Assembly (NCBI GenBank): GCA_041661645.1
Contig: JBAZUA010000001.1
Span: forward strand, 1 to 43,617
DNA length: 43,617 nucleotides
Reading direction: 5' to 3'
DNA from: Minisyncoccota bacterium
GTDB lineage: Bacteria; Patescibacteriota; Minisyncoccia; Phycocordibacterales; UBA6065
The notes under the pieces were generated by a model. That model did not search any database, was not told the DNA's origin, and worked only from the letters and a program-made list of their open reading frames with translations. Of the stretch, positions 12,629-29,533 are shown piece after piece. The position numbers and the translations under genes are program-made. Numbering within the stretch: the first letter of the stretch is position 1; each line of letters begins with the position of its first letter.

Positions 12629-13156
12629 ATGCCTCAAAAAAATAAAAACATCGCCTTTGTGGACGGGCAAAACCTCTACATGGGCACGGCTAAAAGAGAG
12701 GTGGATCCCTGGAAGATCGATCTTGCCCGTTTTCGCGTGTATCTCGAAGAGAAATATCACGTGACCGAAGCATATTATTTCCTAGGTTTCGTCCAGAACG
12801 AGCATGATGATCTGTATGACGAGATACAGCATGCCGGCTTCATCCTGAAATTCAGAGAACACAATCCGGCAATGCTGGGAAAGAAAAAGGGCAATGTCGA
12901 TTCAGACATCATCTTTTACATTATGAAAAAGATGTATAAAAGGGAGGATTTTGAAAGGGTTGTCATGGTGTCTGGCGACGGTGACTACAAGCTGGTCGTG
13001 GATTTTCTGATAGAGGAAGGGAGGTTTGAGAAGATTCTGTTTCCCGATAGACGCAGGGCTTCCTCTTTGTATAAAAAAATAGGCGCCTGTTATTTTGACG
13101 CCTTGGATTCGCCTGGCATACGAAACAAAATTGAGCAAAAGAAAAAGGTTCCTTAG
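12629..13156 (+). CDS. NYN domain (LabA/DUF88, PIN-like) protein
   Basis: FVDGQNL, KGNVDSDI and VSGDGDY motifs. Confidence 0.92.
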   Translation: MPQKNKNIAFVDGQNLYMGTAKREVDPWKIDLARFRVYLEEKYHVTEAYYFLGFVQNEHDDLYDEIQHAGFILKFREHNPAMLGKKKGNVDSDIIFYIMKKMYKREDFERVVMVSGDGDYKLVVDFLIEEGRFEKILFPDRRRASSLYKKIGACYFDALDSPGIRNKIEQKKKVP

Positions 13157-13239
13157 GCACTGAGCCGTTTGGAACCTTTTCCGTCGTAATGGGTATATGT
13201 TATCAAACCAATCGAGGATGTCAAATTCATGACGTGTCT

Positions 13240-13268
13240 TTGACAACGATTGATTAATCATGTATAAA
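13240..13268 (+). promoter_or_regulatory. Sigma70 promoter of the MFS leader
   Basis: TTGACA-N17-TATAAA. Confidence 0.8.
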
Positions 13269-13274
13269 TGACTC

Positions 13275-13427
13275 ATGTCCACAAGGCATTCACAGCTTAA
13301 TAAGTTCGTATGGGCGATCTCACATCGCCCTCTTTGCGTTGCGCGCACCATCGGAGTCATGTTCGATCACGCCCACGCCACAACAACTTTTTTCAGCCGA
13401 GATGCTTTTACTCTTCGCACCAGTTAA
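13275..13427 (+). CDS. Leaderless leader peptide L1 (50 aa; contains PLCVA)
   Basis: MSTRHSQLNKFVWAISHRPLCVARTIGVMFDHAHATTTFFSRDAFTLRTS. The ATG is 6 nt after the -10 and a terminator follows. Confidence 0.65.
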   Translation: MSTRHSQLNKFVWAISHRPLCVARTIGVMFDHAHATTTFFSRDAFTLRTS

Positions 13428-13456
13428 AATCCCACTCTCAATTTCATTGTAGAAAT

Positions 13457-13488
13457 ATCCCGGCTGAATGAAGTCGGGATTTTCTTTT
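13457..13488 (+). terminator. Attenuator terminator upstream of the MFS gene
   Basis: ATCCCGGCT-GAATGA-AGTCGGGAT-TTTCTTTT. Confidence 0.8.
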
Positions 13489-13554
13489 GGATCTCTCGCC
13501 CTCATTCGGCACCGGAACAGTTCTTTACAACATCAAACACAACAAGGATTAGCA

Positions 13555-14742
13555 ATGATCAACAAAATCATCCGTCAGTATCTCGTTCTCACGGGCATGT
13601 TCAACCTGGCCGTATCCCTCAGTCTTGGCACCTATGTCAGCTTCCTTATCAGCAGGGGACTTAACCTGTTCGAGGTGAATCTCGTGAATGTCGCGTATTT
13701 CGTGGCGATGTTCTTCTTCGAGATTCCCACGGGGGCATTCGCGGACACGTTCGGGAGGAAGAATTCGTATGTCATATCATGCGTGCTTTTCTCCCTCGGC
13801 ATGATCGTCTATTCGCAGTCTTACACCATGGCGGGCTTCATCGGTGCCGAGATTCTTGCCGGCATCGGCAGGACCTTCGGCAACGGCGCCTATCACGCCT
13901 GGTTCGTGGACATGCTCAAGCACCATGGGTACAAGGGGACCACCGCCCCGGTCTTTCGGAAGGAACAGATGGTCAGGCAGTTCGTCAGTATCCCTGGCGC
14001 CATAGCCGGCGGATACATCGGATCGCTCGACCTCTCGTACCCTTGGCTTGTCGGCGGGTGCATGGGCATTGTCGTGGCGCTGCTCGCATGGTTCATCATG
14101 AAGGAGGACTATTTCGTCAGGCCTCCCCGGATGAGTCTGTCTGCATCGGTACGCGAGATGTTCAGGATGGCGGGTCAGGGCATGCGATTCGCCCGAAAGA
14201 GCAAGGTCGTGCGCCTCGTCGTCGTGATGAACGCCCTCCTTGCCTTCGCCGTCCAGTCCCCAAACATGCAATGGCAGCCCTTCTTCAGGTCGGCCGTTGG
14301 GAACGTGGCCTGGTTCGGATATATATGGGCTGGGATAGCCACCTGCATCTTCATCGGCATTCATGCGTCAGCGTGGGTGAGGACAAGGATCAGGGACGAG
14401 CCTCTTGCCATGGCCGTATCCATGGTCGCGGCAGGAATCATGCTCGTCTGCGCCGTGTTGAGCAGGGAATATGTGATCATGGCGATCGCCCTATTCCTGG
14501 CACATGAGATACCGAGAGGTGCGTATGCGCCCATAAAGGACGCATATCTGAACGATCACACCGATCAGAGGGAGCGCGCCACGGTGATATCCTGCCAGTC
14601 CGTGTTTGGTCATTTGGCCTGCCTGTCAGGGCTCCTGCTTGGCGGACTGGCTGCCGAGATGGTATCGATATCTGCCGCATGGCTCATATCGGGGGCGATT
14701 CTCGTGGCGGCACCCTTCATTATCATCAGGGTGATGAGGTGA
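13555..14742 (+). CDS. MFS transporter
   Basis: About 12 hydrophobic helices and FEIPTGAFADTFGRK (motif A). Start taken at MINKII. Confidence 0.93.
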   Translation: MINKIIRQYLVLTGMFNLAVSLSLGTYVSFLISRGLNLFEVNLVNVAYFVAMFFFEIPTGAFADTFGRKNSYVISCVLFSLGMIVYSQSYTMAGFIGAEILAGIGRTFGNGAYHAWFVDMLKHHGYKGTTAPVFRKEQMVRQFVSIPGAIAGGYIGSLDLSYPWLVGGCMGIVVALLAWFIMKEDYFVRPPRMSLSASVREMFRMAGQGMRFARKSKVVRLVVVMNALLAFAVQSPNMQWQPFFRSAVGNVAWFGYIWAGIATCIFIGIHASAWVRTRIRDEPLAMAVSMVAAGIMLVCAVLSREYVIMAIALFLAHEIPRGAYAPIKDAYLNDHTDQRERATVISCQSVFGHLACLSGLLLGGLAAEMVSISAAWLISGAILVAAPFIIIRVMR

Positions 14743-28658: not shown

Positions 28659-29264
28659 TCACTTTGCCTTCCGCCTCTTCTTGCCCTTGGCGAGATAAGC
28701 CTTCCATATCGGGGGCCAATCTTCCTTGAACAGGGCGAGGTTAACGACATCAGGATACCCGCCGTCCCGAAGGACGTGTTTTGCGAGCACACCCTCGACC
28801 TTGTATCCGCATTTCTTGCTGTAGGCAAGGCTGCGGGCGTTAAAGGCGATGACCTGGGAACAGAGCTTTCGGAGACCGAGGTTGCTGAAGGCCCAGTTCA
28901 CGAGCTGCATCTTGGCATCGGTTCCGTAACCCTTGTCCCAATACCTCTTGTCGCCGATCATTGCACCGGACACGGCCACACCATCCGTCCATTTGATGTT
29001 GTGGAAGCCGATGTTTCCGATGTGGACCCCATCCTTGGTCTCTATGGCCAAGACGACGTCGCTCTTTGACCCGGTCGAATGCGACTCGAGCCACTTCCTC
29101 TCGGCTTGCATGGTCAAAGGCCACAGTCCGGATAGATATCGCGACACCTCTGGATCATTGATCCATCGCGTGCAGCGTTCCAGGTCTGACTCCTCCAAAG
29201 GGCGGAGATTCACCATGTTTCCACGGAGAAAGACCACCCGATTACCGTCGTTTGTGTTTTTCAT
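28659..29264 (-). CDS. GNAT N-acetyltransferase, RimJ/RimL family
   Basis: LRPLEESDL, HIGNIGF, YWDKGYGT and N.RSLAYSKKCGYKVEG motifs. Confidence 0.92.
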   Translation of the reverse strand: MKNTNDGNRVVFLRGNMVNLRPLEESDLERCTRWINDPEVSRYLSGLWPLTMQAERKWLESHSTGSKSDVVLAIETKDGVHIGNIGFHNIKWTDGVAVSGAMIGDKRYWDKGYGTDAKMQLVNWAFSNLGLRKLCSQVIAFNARSLAYSKKCGYKVEGVLAKHVLRDGGYPDVVNLALFKEDWPPIWKAYLAKGKKRRKAK

Positions 29265-29416: not shown

Positions 29417-29533
29417 TTATGCACTCATGTCGGCCACACACAAAGGGAGGGAATATCCGCGAACGGCAAAATGGCCGTTTGGCGCGGTGATATTCATAAC
29501 CTTCGTATATGACTGGCAGTTGTTGTGCTTCAT
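29417..29533 (-). CDS. Leader peptide L3 (38 aa; contains PLCVA)
   Basis: MKHNNCQSYTKVMNITAPNGHFAVRGYSLPLCVADMSA, lying between a promoter and a terminator. Confidence 0.65.
   Translation of the reverse strand: MKHNNCQSYTKVMNITAPNGHFAVRGYSLPLCVADMSA

What the first reader, a model, noticed from the sequence alone, without database searches (positions are those of the whole stretch)
13240..13555. Leaderless uORF attenuator (L1) in front of the MFS transporter
Seen in sequence: promoter, 50-codon uORF starting at the predicted TSS, then a terminator at 13457-13488. AAAATCCC (13426-13433), overlapping the uORF stop, can pair with the terminator 3' strand GGGATTTT (13476-13483) as an antiterminator. 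Established: this is the geometry of ribosome-mediated transcription attenuation. Inference: ribosome position on L1 controls MFS expression.
Basis: partly seen in the sequence, partly recalled or inferred. Interest (0 to 1): 0.65.

Follow-up and report, generated by a model that had tools for sequence, protein, structure and literature searches.

The report
Leaderless leader-peptide attenuator of Patescibacteria
The 300 bases before this transporter gene form a previously undescribed, widely conserved switch of ultrasmall (CPR) bacteria, in which translation of a tiny upstream reading frame probably decides whether transcription stops before the gene.

Summary

The element is not chance. The organism is a groundwater Patescibacterium. 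The same architecture precedes homologues of this MFS gene in 44 other Patescibacteria loci.

- **uORF:** the ATG is invariant. The frame holds no stop codon, against 111 and 139 in the other two frames. The peptide itself drifts almost neutrally.
- **Antiterminator:** The conserved one is 13392-13403, inside the uORF, with the terminator 5' arm and loop 13457-13468. It pairs in 88% of cells, and 9 of 11 pairs show double changes.
- **Anti-antiterminator:** the 5' part of the uORF pairs with the same block.
- **Unexplained parts:** a fifth segment (13502-13515) co-varies with the terminator loop, and a conserved GTTCTTTACAAC box follows.
- **Other genes:** the same leader family precedes RimL-like GNAT acetyltransferases, including a second copy in this window.

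Best reading: ribosome-mediated transcription attenuation. Efficient uORF translation gives termination; impaired translation gives readthrough. The signal is unknown and there are no RNA data. I found it in neither Rfam nor the literature searched.

The parts
13240..13268 (+). Sigma-70-type promoter: -35 TTGACA (13240-45), 17-nt spacer, -10 TATAAA (13263-68)
   Evidence: Read. The tool's scan missed it only because it demands a T at the last -10 position. A -35/17/-10 promoter whose -10 box ends 6-9 nt before the uORF ATG is found in 39 of 44 homologous loci.
13275..13277 (+). uORF start codon at the predicted transcription start (leaderless; no SD)
   Evidence: The ATG is one of only four invariant columns in the 45-sequence alignment A2, whose mean column identity is 35%. 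No SD-like motif lies upstream in any locus. The start site is predicted, not measured.
13275..13427 (+). Leader ORF (uORF), 50 codons, MSTRHSQLNKFVWAISHRPLCVARTIGVMFDHAHATTTFFSRDAFTLRTS*
   Evidence: Across 45 loci frame 0 holds no stops, against 111 and 139 in the other two frames. Block B sits in the same frame in 31 of 37 dereplicated loci (p=3.6e-10), and the exceptions stay open in another frame. Substitutions by codon position are 63/43/62, with 30 synonymous and 95 non-synonymous changed codons. A 94%-identical variant in run X3 has 11 substitutions and still an open frame. No Pfam or NCBIfam match.
13282..13316 (+). Region 1 (block A): 5' part of the uORF, pairs with region 2 (anti-antiterminator). 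The core AAGGCATT 13283-13290 pairs with GATGCTTT 13401-13408
   Evidence: RNAduplex in the window gives -19.7 kcal/mol, z -2.7. Over 38 loci the median z is -2.2 and 66% reach p<=0.05. The region-2 side always overlaps the antiterminator strand. The same pairs appear in the MFE fold.
13312..13340 (+). Inner hairpin GGGCGAT-CTCAC-ATCGCCC followed by TCTTTGCGTT (candidate pause or weak terminator inside the uORF)
   Evidence: -11.5 kcal/mol. In about 27 of 45 loci a hairpin starts at uORF nt 37-44; 19 of 45 have a T-rich tail of at least 5 T in 9 nt. The stem sequences differ between loci (GGGCGA/TTGCCC, CACCC/GGGTG, CTCCACG/TGTGGGG). The signal is weak per locus. The function is inferred.
13392..13403 (+). 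Region 2 core (block B, TTCAGCCGAGAT): the conserved antiterminator strand, codons F-S-R-D of the uORF. The whole of region 2 spans about 13377-13409
   Evidence: It pairs with 13457-13468, with one mismatch at 13400/13460. On the MAFFT alignment A2, 88% of cells pair against 26-46% when the partner is slid. Nine of 11 pairs show changes on both sides. The covariation score is 0.435 against 0.273 in shuffles, with 0 of 500 reaching it. The best partner of region 3 within the uORF falls on block B in about 37 of 45 loci. Duplex energy is -17.1 kcal/mol.
13426..13433 (+).
   Evidence: It pairs with 13476-13483 in the window only. There is no signal across the homologues.
13457..13488 (+). Intrinsic terminator. 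Region 3 is the 5' arm plus loop (13457-13471), region 4 is the 3' arm (13472-13480), and the U tract is 13481-13488
   Evidence: -14.7 kcal/mol. A G+C-rich hairpin with a T run lies 16-36 nt after the uORF stop in all 45 loci, with different stem sequences (ATCCCGGCT, CGCCTCGG, ATCTCGACT, ACCGGCT, CACCCCGCC).
13502..13515 (+). Region 5 (TCATTCGGCACCGG): post-terminator segment complementary to the terminator loop and distal 5' arm (CCGGCTGAATGA, 13460-13471)
   Evidence: Present in the MFE fold. In the window the energy is -15.3 kcal/mol, z -3.7. Cognate downstream segments pair better with their own loop than non-cognate ones do: median percentile 0.087, Wilcoxon p=3.8e-7, 39 loci. Matched variants include TTAGATAG/CTATCTAA, TTAGACAG/CTGTCTAA, TAGGTAAAC/GTTTACCTA and GCTGAAC/GTTCAGC. 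The function is unexplained.
13520..13531 (+). Conserved box GTTCTTTACAAC between region 5 and the SD
   Evidence: GTTCWTTnACA-like sequence lies 10-30 nt before the SD in most MFS leaders and in the GNAT leaders. It is not a promoter, because there is no room for, or match to, a -10 box. It can pair with the A-rich flank 5' of the terminator. The function is unexplained.
13544..14742 (+). SD AAGGA (13544-48) and the regulated gene: a 395-aa MFS transporter (ATG 13555)
   Evidence: Pfam MFS_1 at 1.2e-21 and MFS_3. There is weak full-length similarity to TetA(P)/Tet(40) and to the TIGR00900 H+ antiporter (DHA3) models, far below their cut-offs. No sequence relative in the PDB. About 40% identical homologues occur across Patescibacteria.

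Best explanation
This is a ribosome-mediated transcription attenuator of a family that I did not find described.

Transcription starts at or next to the AUG at 13275, so the leader ORF is leaderless. Four RNA segments compete:
- region 1 (13282-13316, uORF codons 3-14);
- region 2 (about 13377-13409, core 13392-13403, uORF codons 40-43);
- region 3 (terminator 5' arm and loop, 13457-13471);
- region 4 (terminator 3' arm, 13472-13480, then the U tract).

The 2:3 pairing is the antiterminator, 3:4 is the terminator, and 1:2 withholds region 2.

A ribosome that translates the uORF smoothly occupies region 2, and then sits at the stop codon between regions 2 and 3, while RNA polymerase makes regions 3 and 4. 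The terminator then forms and the MFS gene stays off. If translation of the early uORF is slowed or blocked, region 1 is covered by the ribosome, or region 2 is simply left free. Region 2 then pairs with region 3 and polymerase reads through into the MFS gene.

Shown here by comparative analysis:
- the uORF is kept open while its peptide is not conserved;
- the 2:3, 1:2 and 3:4 pairings are kept through sequence change.

Inferred:
- the start site, the direction of the switch and its timing;
- a synchronising role for the inner hairpin with its U-rich tail (13312-13340).

The signal is not identified. The most likely candidate (about 40%) is general impairment of translation, such as ribosome-targeting compounds. 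The reason is that the same leader family controls a Tet/DHA3-like MFS pump and RimL-like GNAT acetyltransferases, and precedes a third, truncated hydrophobic ORF in one locus.
For: **Conservation.** 45 leaders share the architecture across Taylorbacteria-, Paceibacterota-, Berkelbacteria-, Nealsonbacteria- and Jorgensenbacteria-labelled MAGs.

**Start.** The ATG is invariant in an alignment with 35% mean column identity. The -10 box ends 6-9 nt before the ATG in 39 of 44 loci, and none has an SD.

**Translation is selected, the peptide is not.**
- Stops per frame are 0, 111 and 139.
- The frame of block B is kept in 31 of 37 dereplicated loci (p=3.6e-10). The exceptions remain open through block B in another frame.
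- Substitutions are flat across codon positions (63/43/62), with 30 synonymous and 95 non-synonymous changed codons.
- Arg/Cys swaps (CGC/TGC) at codon 6 keep the RNA pair.

**Antiterminator 2:3.** 88% of cells pair against 26-46% when slid. Nine of 11 pairs have double changes, and 0 of 500 shuffles reach the covariation score. The site is located consistently.

**1:2 pairing.** Median z -2.2, always overlapping the 2:3 strand.

**Terminator.** Present in 45 of 45 loci, 16-36 nt after the stop.

**Folding.**
- Before region 4 exists, 2:3 forms in 91-100% of loci.
- In the complete leader the terminator is in the MFE in 76% of loci.
- That falls to 42% when nt 1-42 are masked, as by a ribosome stalled near codon 9.

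**Cis-regulatory family.** The same leader family precedes GNAT genes (L057, L140, L156, L177-L180 and this window's second copy) and a third ORF (L146).

**Not a known RNA family.** No Rfam family matches.
Against: - No transcript data exist. No RNA run holds the stretch, so the start site, the 3' end at about 13488 and any regulation are predictions.
- In this window the stop codon lies 22 nt after the 2:3 strand. A ribosome waiting at the stop does not cover that strand. Occlusion must come from transit, from trailing ribosomes, or from steric hindrance of a helix that would have to enclose the ribosome.
- In the window's own MFE the antiterminator beats the terminator even without a ribosome. 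This fits the rule that translation is needed for termination, but it differs from the classical trp logic.
- 1:2 and 2:3 are only partly exclusive in predicted folds.
- The conserved region 5 and the GTTCTTTACAAC box have no role in the model.
- The signal is unknown and there is no run of regulatory codons.
- Coupling of transcription and translation has not been studied in these bacteria.
Confidence: 0.75

Rival explanations
1. It has the same attenuator architecture, but the signal is the supply of particular charged or modified tRNAs, as in the amino-acid operon attenuators. Slow decoding of Asn, His or Tyr (NAY) codons early in the uORF would stall the ribosome on region 1.
For: Asn makes up 17% of the first 12 residues against 5% in the rest. 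Codon 9 is Asn in 28 of 45 leaders. Codons 4, 5 and 9 are NAY in 47%, 62% and 71% of leaders, against a 13-27% background. These bacteria depend on imported amino acids (general knowledge).
Against: No locus has a tandem run of one codon. The NAY positions lie inside the RNA pairing blocks, so pairing with R-U can explain the conserved A-Y. The regulated genes (efflux-like MFS, GNAT) are not amino-acid biosynthesis or obvious uptake genes.
Confidence: 0.13
2. It is an RNA-only sensor, either a riboswitch or a leader bound by a protein or tRNA. The domain closed by 1:2 would bind a ligand that decides between 2:3 and 3:4, and the ORF would be incidental or secondary.
For: It has a long-range closing helix, an internal hairpin and an expression platform of the riboswitch type. 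One RNA family stands before an exporter, an acetyltransferase and a third ORF, as with riboswitches for toxic metabolites.
Against: The interior of the domain varies in sequence and length. Only 9 columns are at least 90% conserved, three of which are the ATG. The ORF is kept open with p far below 1e-10 and the frame is kept, which an RNA-only element does not require. No Rfam family matches, even at E up to 10.
Confidence: 0.07
3. AAAATCCC at the uORF stop (13426-13433) pairs with the terminator 3' arm (13476-13483), and a ribosome at the stop codon masks this antiterminator.
For: The pairing exists in this window at -10.6 kcal/mol, with 2% of shuffles as good.
Against: It is absent from the closest relatives L001 and L004 and is at chance level over 45 loci: median z +0.23, with 7% at p<=0.05. 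The conserved, co-varying partner of the terminator is 13392-13403.
Confidence: 0.04
4. It is a free-standing small gene: a 50-aa microprotein or a roughly 215-nt small RNA with its own promoter and terminator, which merely sits upstream of an independently transcribed MFS gene.
For: It is a complete unit of promoter, ORF and terminator, and the terminated leader would be a discrete RNA.
Against: The peptide is not under purifying selection and has no family match. No promoter-like site lies between the terminator and the MFS start. The unit is always co-oriented and 40-100 nt upstream of its gene, in front of at least two unrelated gene families. The terminator competes with a conserved antiterminator.
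Confidence: 0.04

Closest known systems
Ribosome-mediated transcription attenuators of drug-response genes in Firmicutes: bmrB-bmrCD of Bacillus subtilis (PMC4191407), the mef(E)/mel leader of Streptococcus (PMC4335068) and the vmlR leader (PMC9226507)
   Same: A short leader ORF lies ahead of an intrinsic terminator. Ribosome stalling in the leader favours an antiterminator. The regulated genes are efflux pumps or resistance factors. The leader peptide has no function in trans.
   Different: There is no sequence or structural homology. Here the uORF is leaderless and long (29-53 codons), and it runs through both region 1 and the antiterminator strand. Termination seems to need translation through region 2. 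A fifth co-varying segment and a conserved box follow the terminator. The inducing signal is untested.
Amino-acid operon attenuators (trpL, hisL, pheL and leuL of Enterobacteria; ilvB and trp leaders of Corynebacterium, PMC11857589)
   Same: It uses the four-segment logic 1:2 / 2:3 / 3:4, with the uORF covering region 1. It may have a pause hairpin that synchronises ribosome and polymerase. In Corynebacterium the leader ORFs are also leaderless.
   Different: There is no run of regulatory codons. The stop codon lies after region 2, not between regions 1 and 2. The regulated genes are a transporter and an acetyltransferase rather than biosynthetic operons. In several loci, this window included, the RNA alone favours the antiterminator.
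Leaderless polycysteine uORFs of mycobacteria (bioRxiv 10.1101/834739)
   Same: A leaderless short ORF at the 5' end of an operon mRNA acts as a sensor through its own translation.
   Different: Those ORFs sense cysteine through Cys codons and act mainly on downstream translation and operon expression. Here there is an intrinsic terminator/antiterminator switch and no Cys run.
toiL, the multipurpose sensory uORF of E. coli topAI (PMC12121999)
   Same: It is a uORF that could report many kinds of translation stress, because stalling at different codons remodels the downstream RNA structure.
   Different: toiL has an SD, controls RBS occlusion and Rho-dependent termination, and is confined to Enterobacteria. 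This element uses an intrinsic terminator.

Membership tests
Leader-peptide (ribosome-mediated) transcription attenuator | A short ORF is translated at the 5' end of the leader transcript | tested here: met
   The evidence is evolutionary only: an invariant ATG, 0 stops against 111 and 139 in the other frames, and frame retention at p=3.6e-10. Translation itself was not observed.
Leader-peptide (ribosome-mediated) transcription attenuator | An intrinsic terminator lies between the leader ORF and the structural gene | tested here: met
   Hairpin 13457-13480 with a U tract; present in 45 of 45 loci.
Leader-peptide (ribosome-mediated) transcription attenuator | An alternative antiterminator has one strand that a translating ribosome can occupy | tested here: met
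   13392-13403 (uORF codons 40-43) pairs with 13457-13468. Covariation is and site consistency.
Leader-peptide (ribosome-mediated) transcription attenuator | Readthrough depends on ribosome position, shown by start or stop mutants or by stalling | not testable with these tools
   No RNA runs exist. The only support is in silico masking of nt 1-42, which lowers terminator formation from 76% to 42% of loci.
Amino-acid-type attenuator (trpL-like) | A cluster of codons for the regulating amino acid lies in region 1 | tested here: not met
   No tandem runs were found. There is only Asn/His/Tyr enrichment at codons 4, 5 and 9, which RNA pairing can also explain.
Drug-inducible arrest-peptide leaders (erm, msrD, cat type) | A conserved arrest motif in the nascent peptide and drug-dependent stalling | tested here: inconclusive
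   The N-terminal pattern x6-[LM]-N9 is frequent. However, radical swaps such as R/C, together with near-neutral evolution, argue that the RNA rather than the peptide is conserved. Stalling cannot be tested here.
Riboswitch | A conserved ligand-binding core with many invariant unpaired nucleotides, working independently of translation | tested here: not met
   Few conserved columns lie outside the pairing blocks. The ORF is under selection. There is no Rfam match at the gathering score or at E up to 10.
Leaderless mRNA | Transcription starts at the A of the start codon, or within a few nt of it | not testable with these tools
   This is predicted from the promoter geometry: the -10 box ends 6 nt before the ATG here, and 6-9 nt before it in 39 of 44 loci. 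One clade (L032, L039, L041, L042, L053) more likely has an SD-less leader of about 11 nt.

The most novel reading that the evidence does not exclude
The leader is the cis element of a translation-stress regulon spread across the phylum Patescibacteria. One leaderless uORF switch, duplicated before a Tet/DHA3-like MFS pump, a RimL-like GNAT acetyltransferase and probably an ABC exporter, would report ribosome slowdown. The slowdown could come from ribosome-targeting or synthetase-targeting compounds of hosts and competitors. Alternatively it could come from poor decoding of the NAY codons fixed at positions 5 and 9. Either way the switch would turn on export and detoxification. The co-varying post-terminator segment and the GTTCTTTACAAC box would add a second layer of control, over translation or stability, on the readthrough mRNA.
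Probability: 0.35. Interest if true: 0.75.

Novelty: new variant of a known kind. Interest (0 to 1): 0.62.

Why it matters
Almost nothing is known about gene regulation in Patescibacteria (CPR). They make up a large share of bacterial diversity and have very few transcription factors.

This would be, to my knowledge, a first candidate regulatory leader family shared by many Patescibacteria lineages; no report turned up in Rfam or in the literature searched. It would suggest that they use translation-coupled attenuation with leaderless uORFs.

It points to a small set of co-regulated genes (pump, acetyltransferase) whose inducer could reveal what chemical stress these episymbionts face. It also offers a natural inducible expression element, something explicitly wanted for the emerging genetics of these organisms (PMC11665869).

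Mechanistically it extends the attenuator repertoire in three ways: termination depends on translation through the antiterminator strand, a fifth segment co-varies with the terminator loop, and a conserved box follows.

Tried and rejected
- **Rfam.** There is nothing at the gathering score in the whole window, and only sub-threshold noise at E up to 10 in 13100-13650.
- **Plasmid collection.** blastn found no match.
- **Metagenome scan.** The scan with TTTARCCAAGGCGRTTTT returned about 110 chance hits among 120.
Tested and rejected as a conserved feature.
- **Column-wise counts for 3:4 and 1:2 on A2.** I abandoned these. MAFFT shifts the 3' arm between clades, and the 1:2 register differs between clades. 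Both were assessed per locus instead.
- **Tryptophan attenuator.** The single Trp codons mostly sit in the GGGG arm of the inner hairpin, so this idea was dropped.
- **Link to HisRS.** HisRS and NUDIX neighbours occur only in L004, L177 and L178, which are not shown to be independent lineages. In the window HisRS lies 20 kb away.
- **Conserved cluster with the ABC-F, ABC exporter and NYN genes.** These neighbours are not conserved next to the MFS gene elsewhere.
- **Shared PLCVA arrest peptide in the two leaders of this window.** The homologues read PLCVW, PLCAA and PLFAM. The shared letters come from the RNA motif CCYUUUGYG after the inner hairpin.
- **Region 3:5 by energy alone.** This was weak, with 20% of loci at p<=0.05. 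The cognate against non-cognate test was needed.
Full report
**1. What is in the window**

Reading 12900-13900 confirms each item of the finding.
- The -35 box TTGACA is at 13240-13245, followed by a 17-nt spacer.
- The -10 box TATAAA is at 13263-13268.
- The ATG is at 13275, 6 nt after the -10 box. No Shine-Dalgarno sequence precedes it.
- The 50-codon ORF ends with TAA at 13425-13427.
- The hairpin 13457-13480 has 9 pairs and is followed by TTTCTTTT. Its predicted energy is -14.7 kcal/mol.

The MFS gene starts at 13555, behind the SD AAGGA at 13544-13548. The upstream NYN-domain gene ends at 13156.

The tool's promoter scan missed the promoter only because it requires a T at the last -10 position. 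A contig of run X1 is identical over 13200-13600.

The MFS homologues and the run metadata place the window in a groundwater Patescibacterium of the Parcubacteria/Taylorbacteria type.

**2. The element is conserved far beyond chance**

I collected homologous loci in three ways.
- Contigs encoding the closest MFS homologues (78%, 75% and 59% identity) all carry a long upstream spacer with the same blocks.
- A scan of one genome per species with an MFS alignment returned 50 Patescibacteria loci.
- Inspecting 330-420 nt upstream of each gave 44 further leaders with the same order of parts.

That order is promoter, ATG, open frame of 29-53 codons, inner hairpin, conserved block B, stop, terminator, a short spacer with a conserved box, SD and MFS.

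In the 45-sequence MAFFT alignment A2 the mean column identity is 35%. Even so, the ATG is three of only four invariant columns. A -35/17/-10 promoter whose -10 box ends 6-9 nt before the ATG is found in 39 of 44 loci. None has an SD-like motif. One clade (L032, L039, L041, L042, L053) more likely has an SD-less leader of about 11 nt.

**3. The ORF is selected, its product is not**

- Over the 45 uORF spans, frame 0 has no stop codon, while the other two frames have 111 and 139. The ORFs were chosen by their ATG next to the promoter. Even allowing a free choice of frame, this cannot be chance.
- Block B lies in the same frame relative to the ATG in 38 of 45 loci, or 31 of 37 after removing near-duplicates (binomial p=3.6e-10).
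- In the exceptions (L009/L018, L027, L045, L047, L024, L008) the frame differs, yet it stays open through block B and closes before the terminator.
- Among close pairs, substitutions fall evenly on codon positions (63/43/62). Changed codons are 30 synonymous against 95 non-synonymous.
- A 94%-identical natural variant in a landfill metagenome has 11 substitutions and 7 amino-acid changes in the uORF and keeps it open. Blocks A and B, the terminator and region 5 are untouched.
- Radical swaps such as Arg/Cys at codon 6 (CGC/TGC) preserve an RNA pair.

This is the signature of a regulatory uORF: ribosome passage matters and the peptide does not. The peptide matches no Pfam or NCBIfam model.

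**4. The RNA switch**

*Antiterminator (2:3).* Block B, TTCAGCCGAGAT (13392-13403), is the reverse complement of the terminator 5' arm and loop, ATCCCGGCTGAA (13457-13468), apart from one mismatch at 13400/13460. In the largest clade the two strands read AACCAAGGCG and CGCCTCGGTT, so both sides have changed together.

On the structure-blind alignment A2 the 11 pairs behave as follows.
- Cells paired: 88%, against 26-46% when the partner is slid by 1-3 columns.
- Pairs with changes on both sides: 9 of 11.
- Covariation score: 0.435, against 0.273 in shuffles. None of 500 shuffles reaches it.

Independently, the best RNAduplex partner of region 3 within each uORF falls on block B, 23-47 nt before the ORF end, in about 37 of 45 loci, with a median z of -2.6.

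*Anti-antiterminator (1:2).* The first 7-42 nt of the uORF pair with block B and its flanks. In the window the energy is -19.7 kcal/mol. Over 38 loci the median z is -2.2 and 66% reach p<=0.05. The region-2 side always overlaps the antiterminator strand.

*Terminator (3:4).* It is present in all 45 loci, with several different stem sequences, 16-36 nt after the uORF stop.

It is at chance level across the family: median z +0.23, with 7% of loci at p<=0.05.

*Folding with a mimicked stalled ribosome.*

| Transcript folded | Free | nt 1-42 masked |
|---|---|---|
| Before region 4 exists: loci where 2:3 forms | 91% | 100% |
| Complete leader: loci where the terminator is in the MFE | 76% | 42% |

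Masking nt 1-42 mimics a ribosome stalled near codon 9. For this window the antiterminator (-17.1 kcal/mol as a duplex) outcompetes the terminator (-14.7) even without masking. Termination here should therefore need a ribosome on, or just past, region 2.

**5. Mechanism proposed**

When uORF translation is efficient, the ribosome occupies region 2 and then the stop codon while polymerase makes regions 3 and 4. The terminator forms and the gene is off.

When early uORF translation is slow, blocked or absent, region 2 is free and region 1 is covered. The 2:3 helix forms and polymerase reads through.

The inner hairpin begins at uORF nt 37-44 in about 27 of 45 loci, and 19 of 45 have a T-rich tail. 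It would be a pause or weak terminator that a following ribosome melts, synchronising the two machines. This is inference; per locus the signal is weak.

A ribosome with codon 9 in its P site would cover region 1 and reach the 5' arm of this hairpin. That matches the fixed position of a conserved codon: Asn at codon 9 in 28 of 45 leaders. The same nucleotides lie in RNA pairs, so this does not prove a peptide or codon effect.

**6. What signal?**

It is not identified. The regulated MFS protein is distantly related, over its full length, to the TetA(P)/Tet(40) and DHA3 antiporter models, far below their cut-offs.

A metagenome scan with a block-B pattern gave mostly chance hits, but it also gave 10 true leaders.
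- Six stand before MFS genes.
- Three (L057, L140, L156) stand before a GNAT acetyltransferase of the RimJ/RimL type (Pfam Acetyltransf_3).
- One (L146) stands before a hydrophobic ORF that is cut off by the contig end.

An nhmmer profile of A2 recognises all of them.

That GNAT is 48% identical to the GNAT at 28659-29264 (minus strand) of this window. The window's GNAT has its own leaderless uORF, terminator and box on the minus strand, at about 29571-29360. There, block B (GGCCGACATG, pairing with CATCCCGGCT) is read in a different frame.

Four further GNAT homologues from other MAGs (L177-L180) all carry such leaders. In L175 and L176 the GNAT directly follows an ABC transporter gene.

One leader family thus stands before a pump-like MFS and an acetyltransferase. 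This argues for a common, translation-related signal rather than a substrate-specific one, and it resembles the antibiotic-responsive attenuators of Firmicutes (PMC4191407, PMC4335068, PMC9226507) and the multipurpose uORF toiL (PMC12121999). I put about 40% on general translation impairment and about 13% on a tRNA-specific signal (Asn/His/Tyr NAY codons).

**7. Parts the model does not explain**

A segment 4-20 nt after the U tract (window 13502-13515) is complementary to the terminator loop and distal 5' arm (13460-13471). It changes together with them: TTAGATAG/CTATCTAA, TTAGACAG/CTGTCTAA, TAGGTAAAC/GTTTACCTA and GCTGAAC/GTTCAGC. Cognate pairs beat non-cognate pairs with Wilcoxon p=3.8e-7.

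It is transcribed after the termination point, so it cannot affect the decision of the same polymerase. It may refold the readthrough mRNA.

It is followed by a conserved box, GTTCTTTACAAC (13520-13531), which is present in MFS and GNAT leaders alike. A role in translation or stability of the readthrough mRNA is possible but untested.

**8. Known or new**

No Rfam family matches. Full-text searches found no report of leader peptides, attenuators or leaderless uORFs in Patescibacteria. A recent perspective on their biology mentions riboswitches only as a wished-for tool.

Leader-peptide attenuation and leaderless sensory uORFs are well known elsewhere (PMC11857589; bioRxiv 10.1101/834739). This is therefore a new family and architectural variant of a known kind of system, not a new principle.

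**9. Limits**

All the evidence is comparative and computational.
- No RNA run holds the stretch.
- MAG labels in public records are uneven, so the taxonomic breadth is approximate.

Noticed in passing
window 29571-29360 (- strand) and 29264-28659 (- strand): This is a second leader of the same family. It has TTGACA at 29571-29566, an ATG at 29533, a 38-codon uORF (MKHNNCQSYTKVMNITAPNGHFAVRGYSLPLCVADMSA), a terminator (CCCGGCT/AGCCGGG, about 29387-29360) and a GTTCATTAACA box. It precedes a RimL-like GNAT acetyltransferase that has no obvious SD. Its block B (GGCCGACATG) is read in a different frame from the MFS leader. The nhmmer profile of the MFS leaders did not reach it. The link rests on orthologous GNATs that carry family-type leaders.
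   Followed up: partly
window 13143-13186: The hairpin AAAGGTTCC...GGAACCTTT spans the NYN stop codon and is followed by TTCC. It is most simply the terminator of the NYN gene, which would give the MFS leader its own transcription unit. It is the source of a sub-threshold Rfam hit (ctRNA_p42d, 22.7 bits against a cut-off of 50).
   Followed up: no
uORF codons 4, 5 and 9 (window 13284-13289 and 13299-13301) and the homologues: Codons 4, 5 and 9 are NAY (Asn, His, Tyr or Asp, the set decoded by queuosine-type tRNAs) in 47%, 62% and 71% of 45 leaders, against a 13-27% background. At codon 5 the amino acid varies (N, H or Y) while the A-Y is kept. RNA pairing can explain this, but a decoding effect is not excluded.
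   Followed up: partly
L039 and L042, about 14-30 nt after the terminator: In this clade the post-terminator segment copies the terminator 5' arm (TGCCTCGGG). It would therefore pair with the 3' arm instead of the loop. This is a different way to the same end, disrupting the terminator hairpin in readthrough RNA.
   Followed up: no
L178 (1-3597), L177, L004: In some loci the leader-controlled gene sits among HisRS and NUDIX genes. L178 has two NUDIX genes and two HisRS fragments flanking the GNAT. In L004 the MFS gene lies between NUDIX and HisRS. These neighbours were not seen in the other loci.
   Followed up: partly
L175 and L176, 1-2085: The orthologous GNAT follows an ABC-transporter gene with a 1-nt gap, apparently as an operon. 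The start of that ABC gene, and any leader before it, lies outside the DNA fetched.
   Followed up: no
L009 and L017, just upstream of the leader promoter: The 3' end of what looks like a tRNA gene (GGTTCGATTCC...CCA-like) abuts the leader promoter.
   Followed up: no
L011 2170-2500: This G+C-rich Parcubacteria locus lacks a recognisable uORF leader. It keeps a box-like GAGCTTCACAAAC before the MFS SD and has other strong hairpins, so the leader may have been replaced.
   Followed up: no
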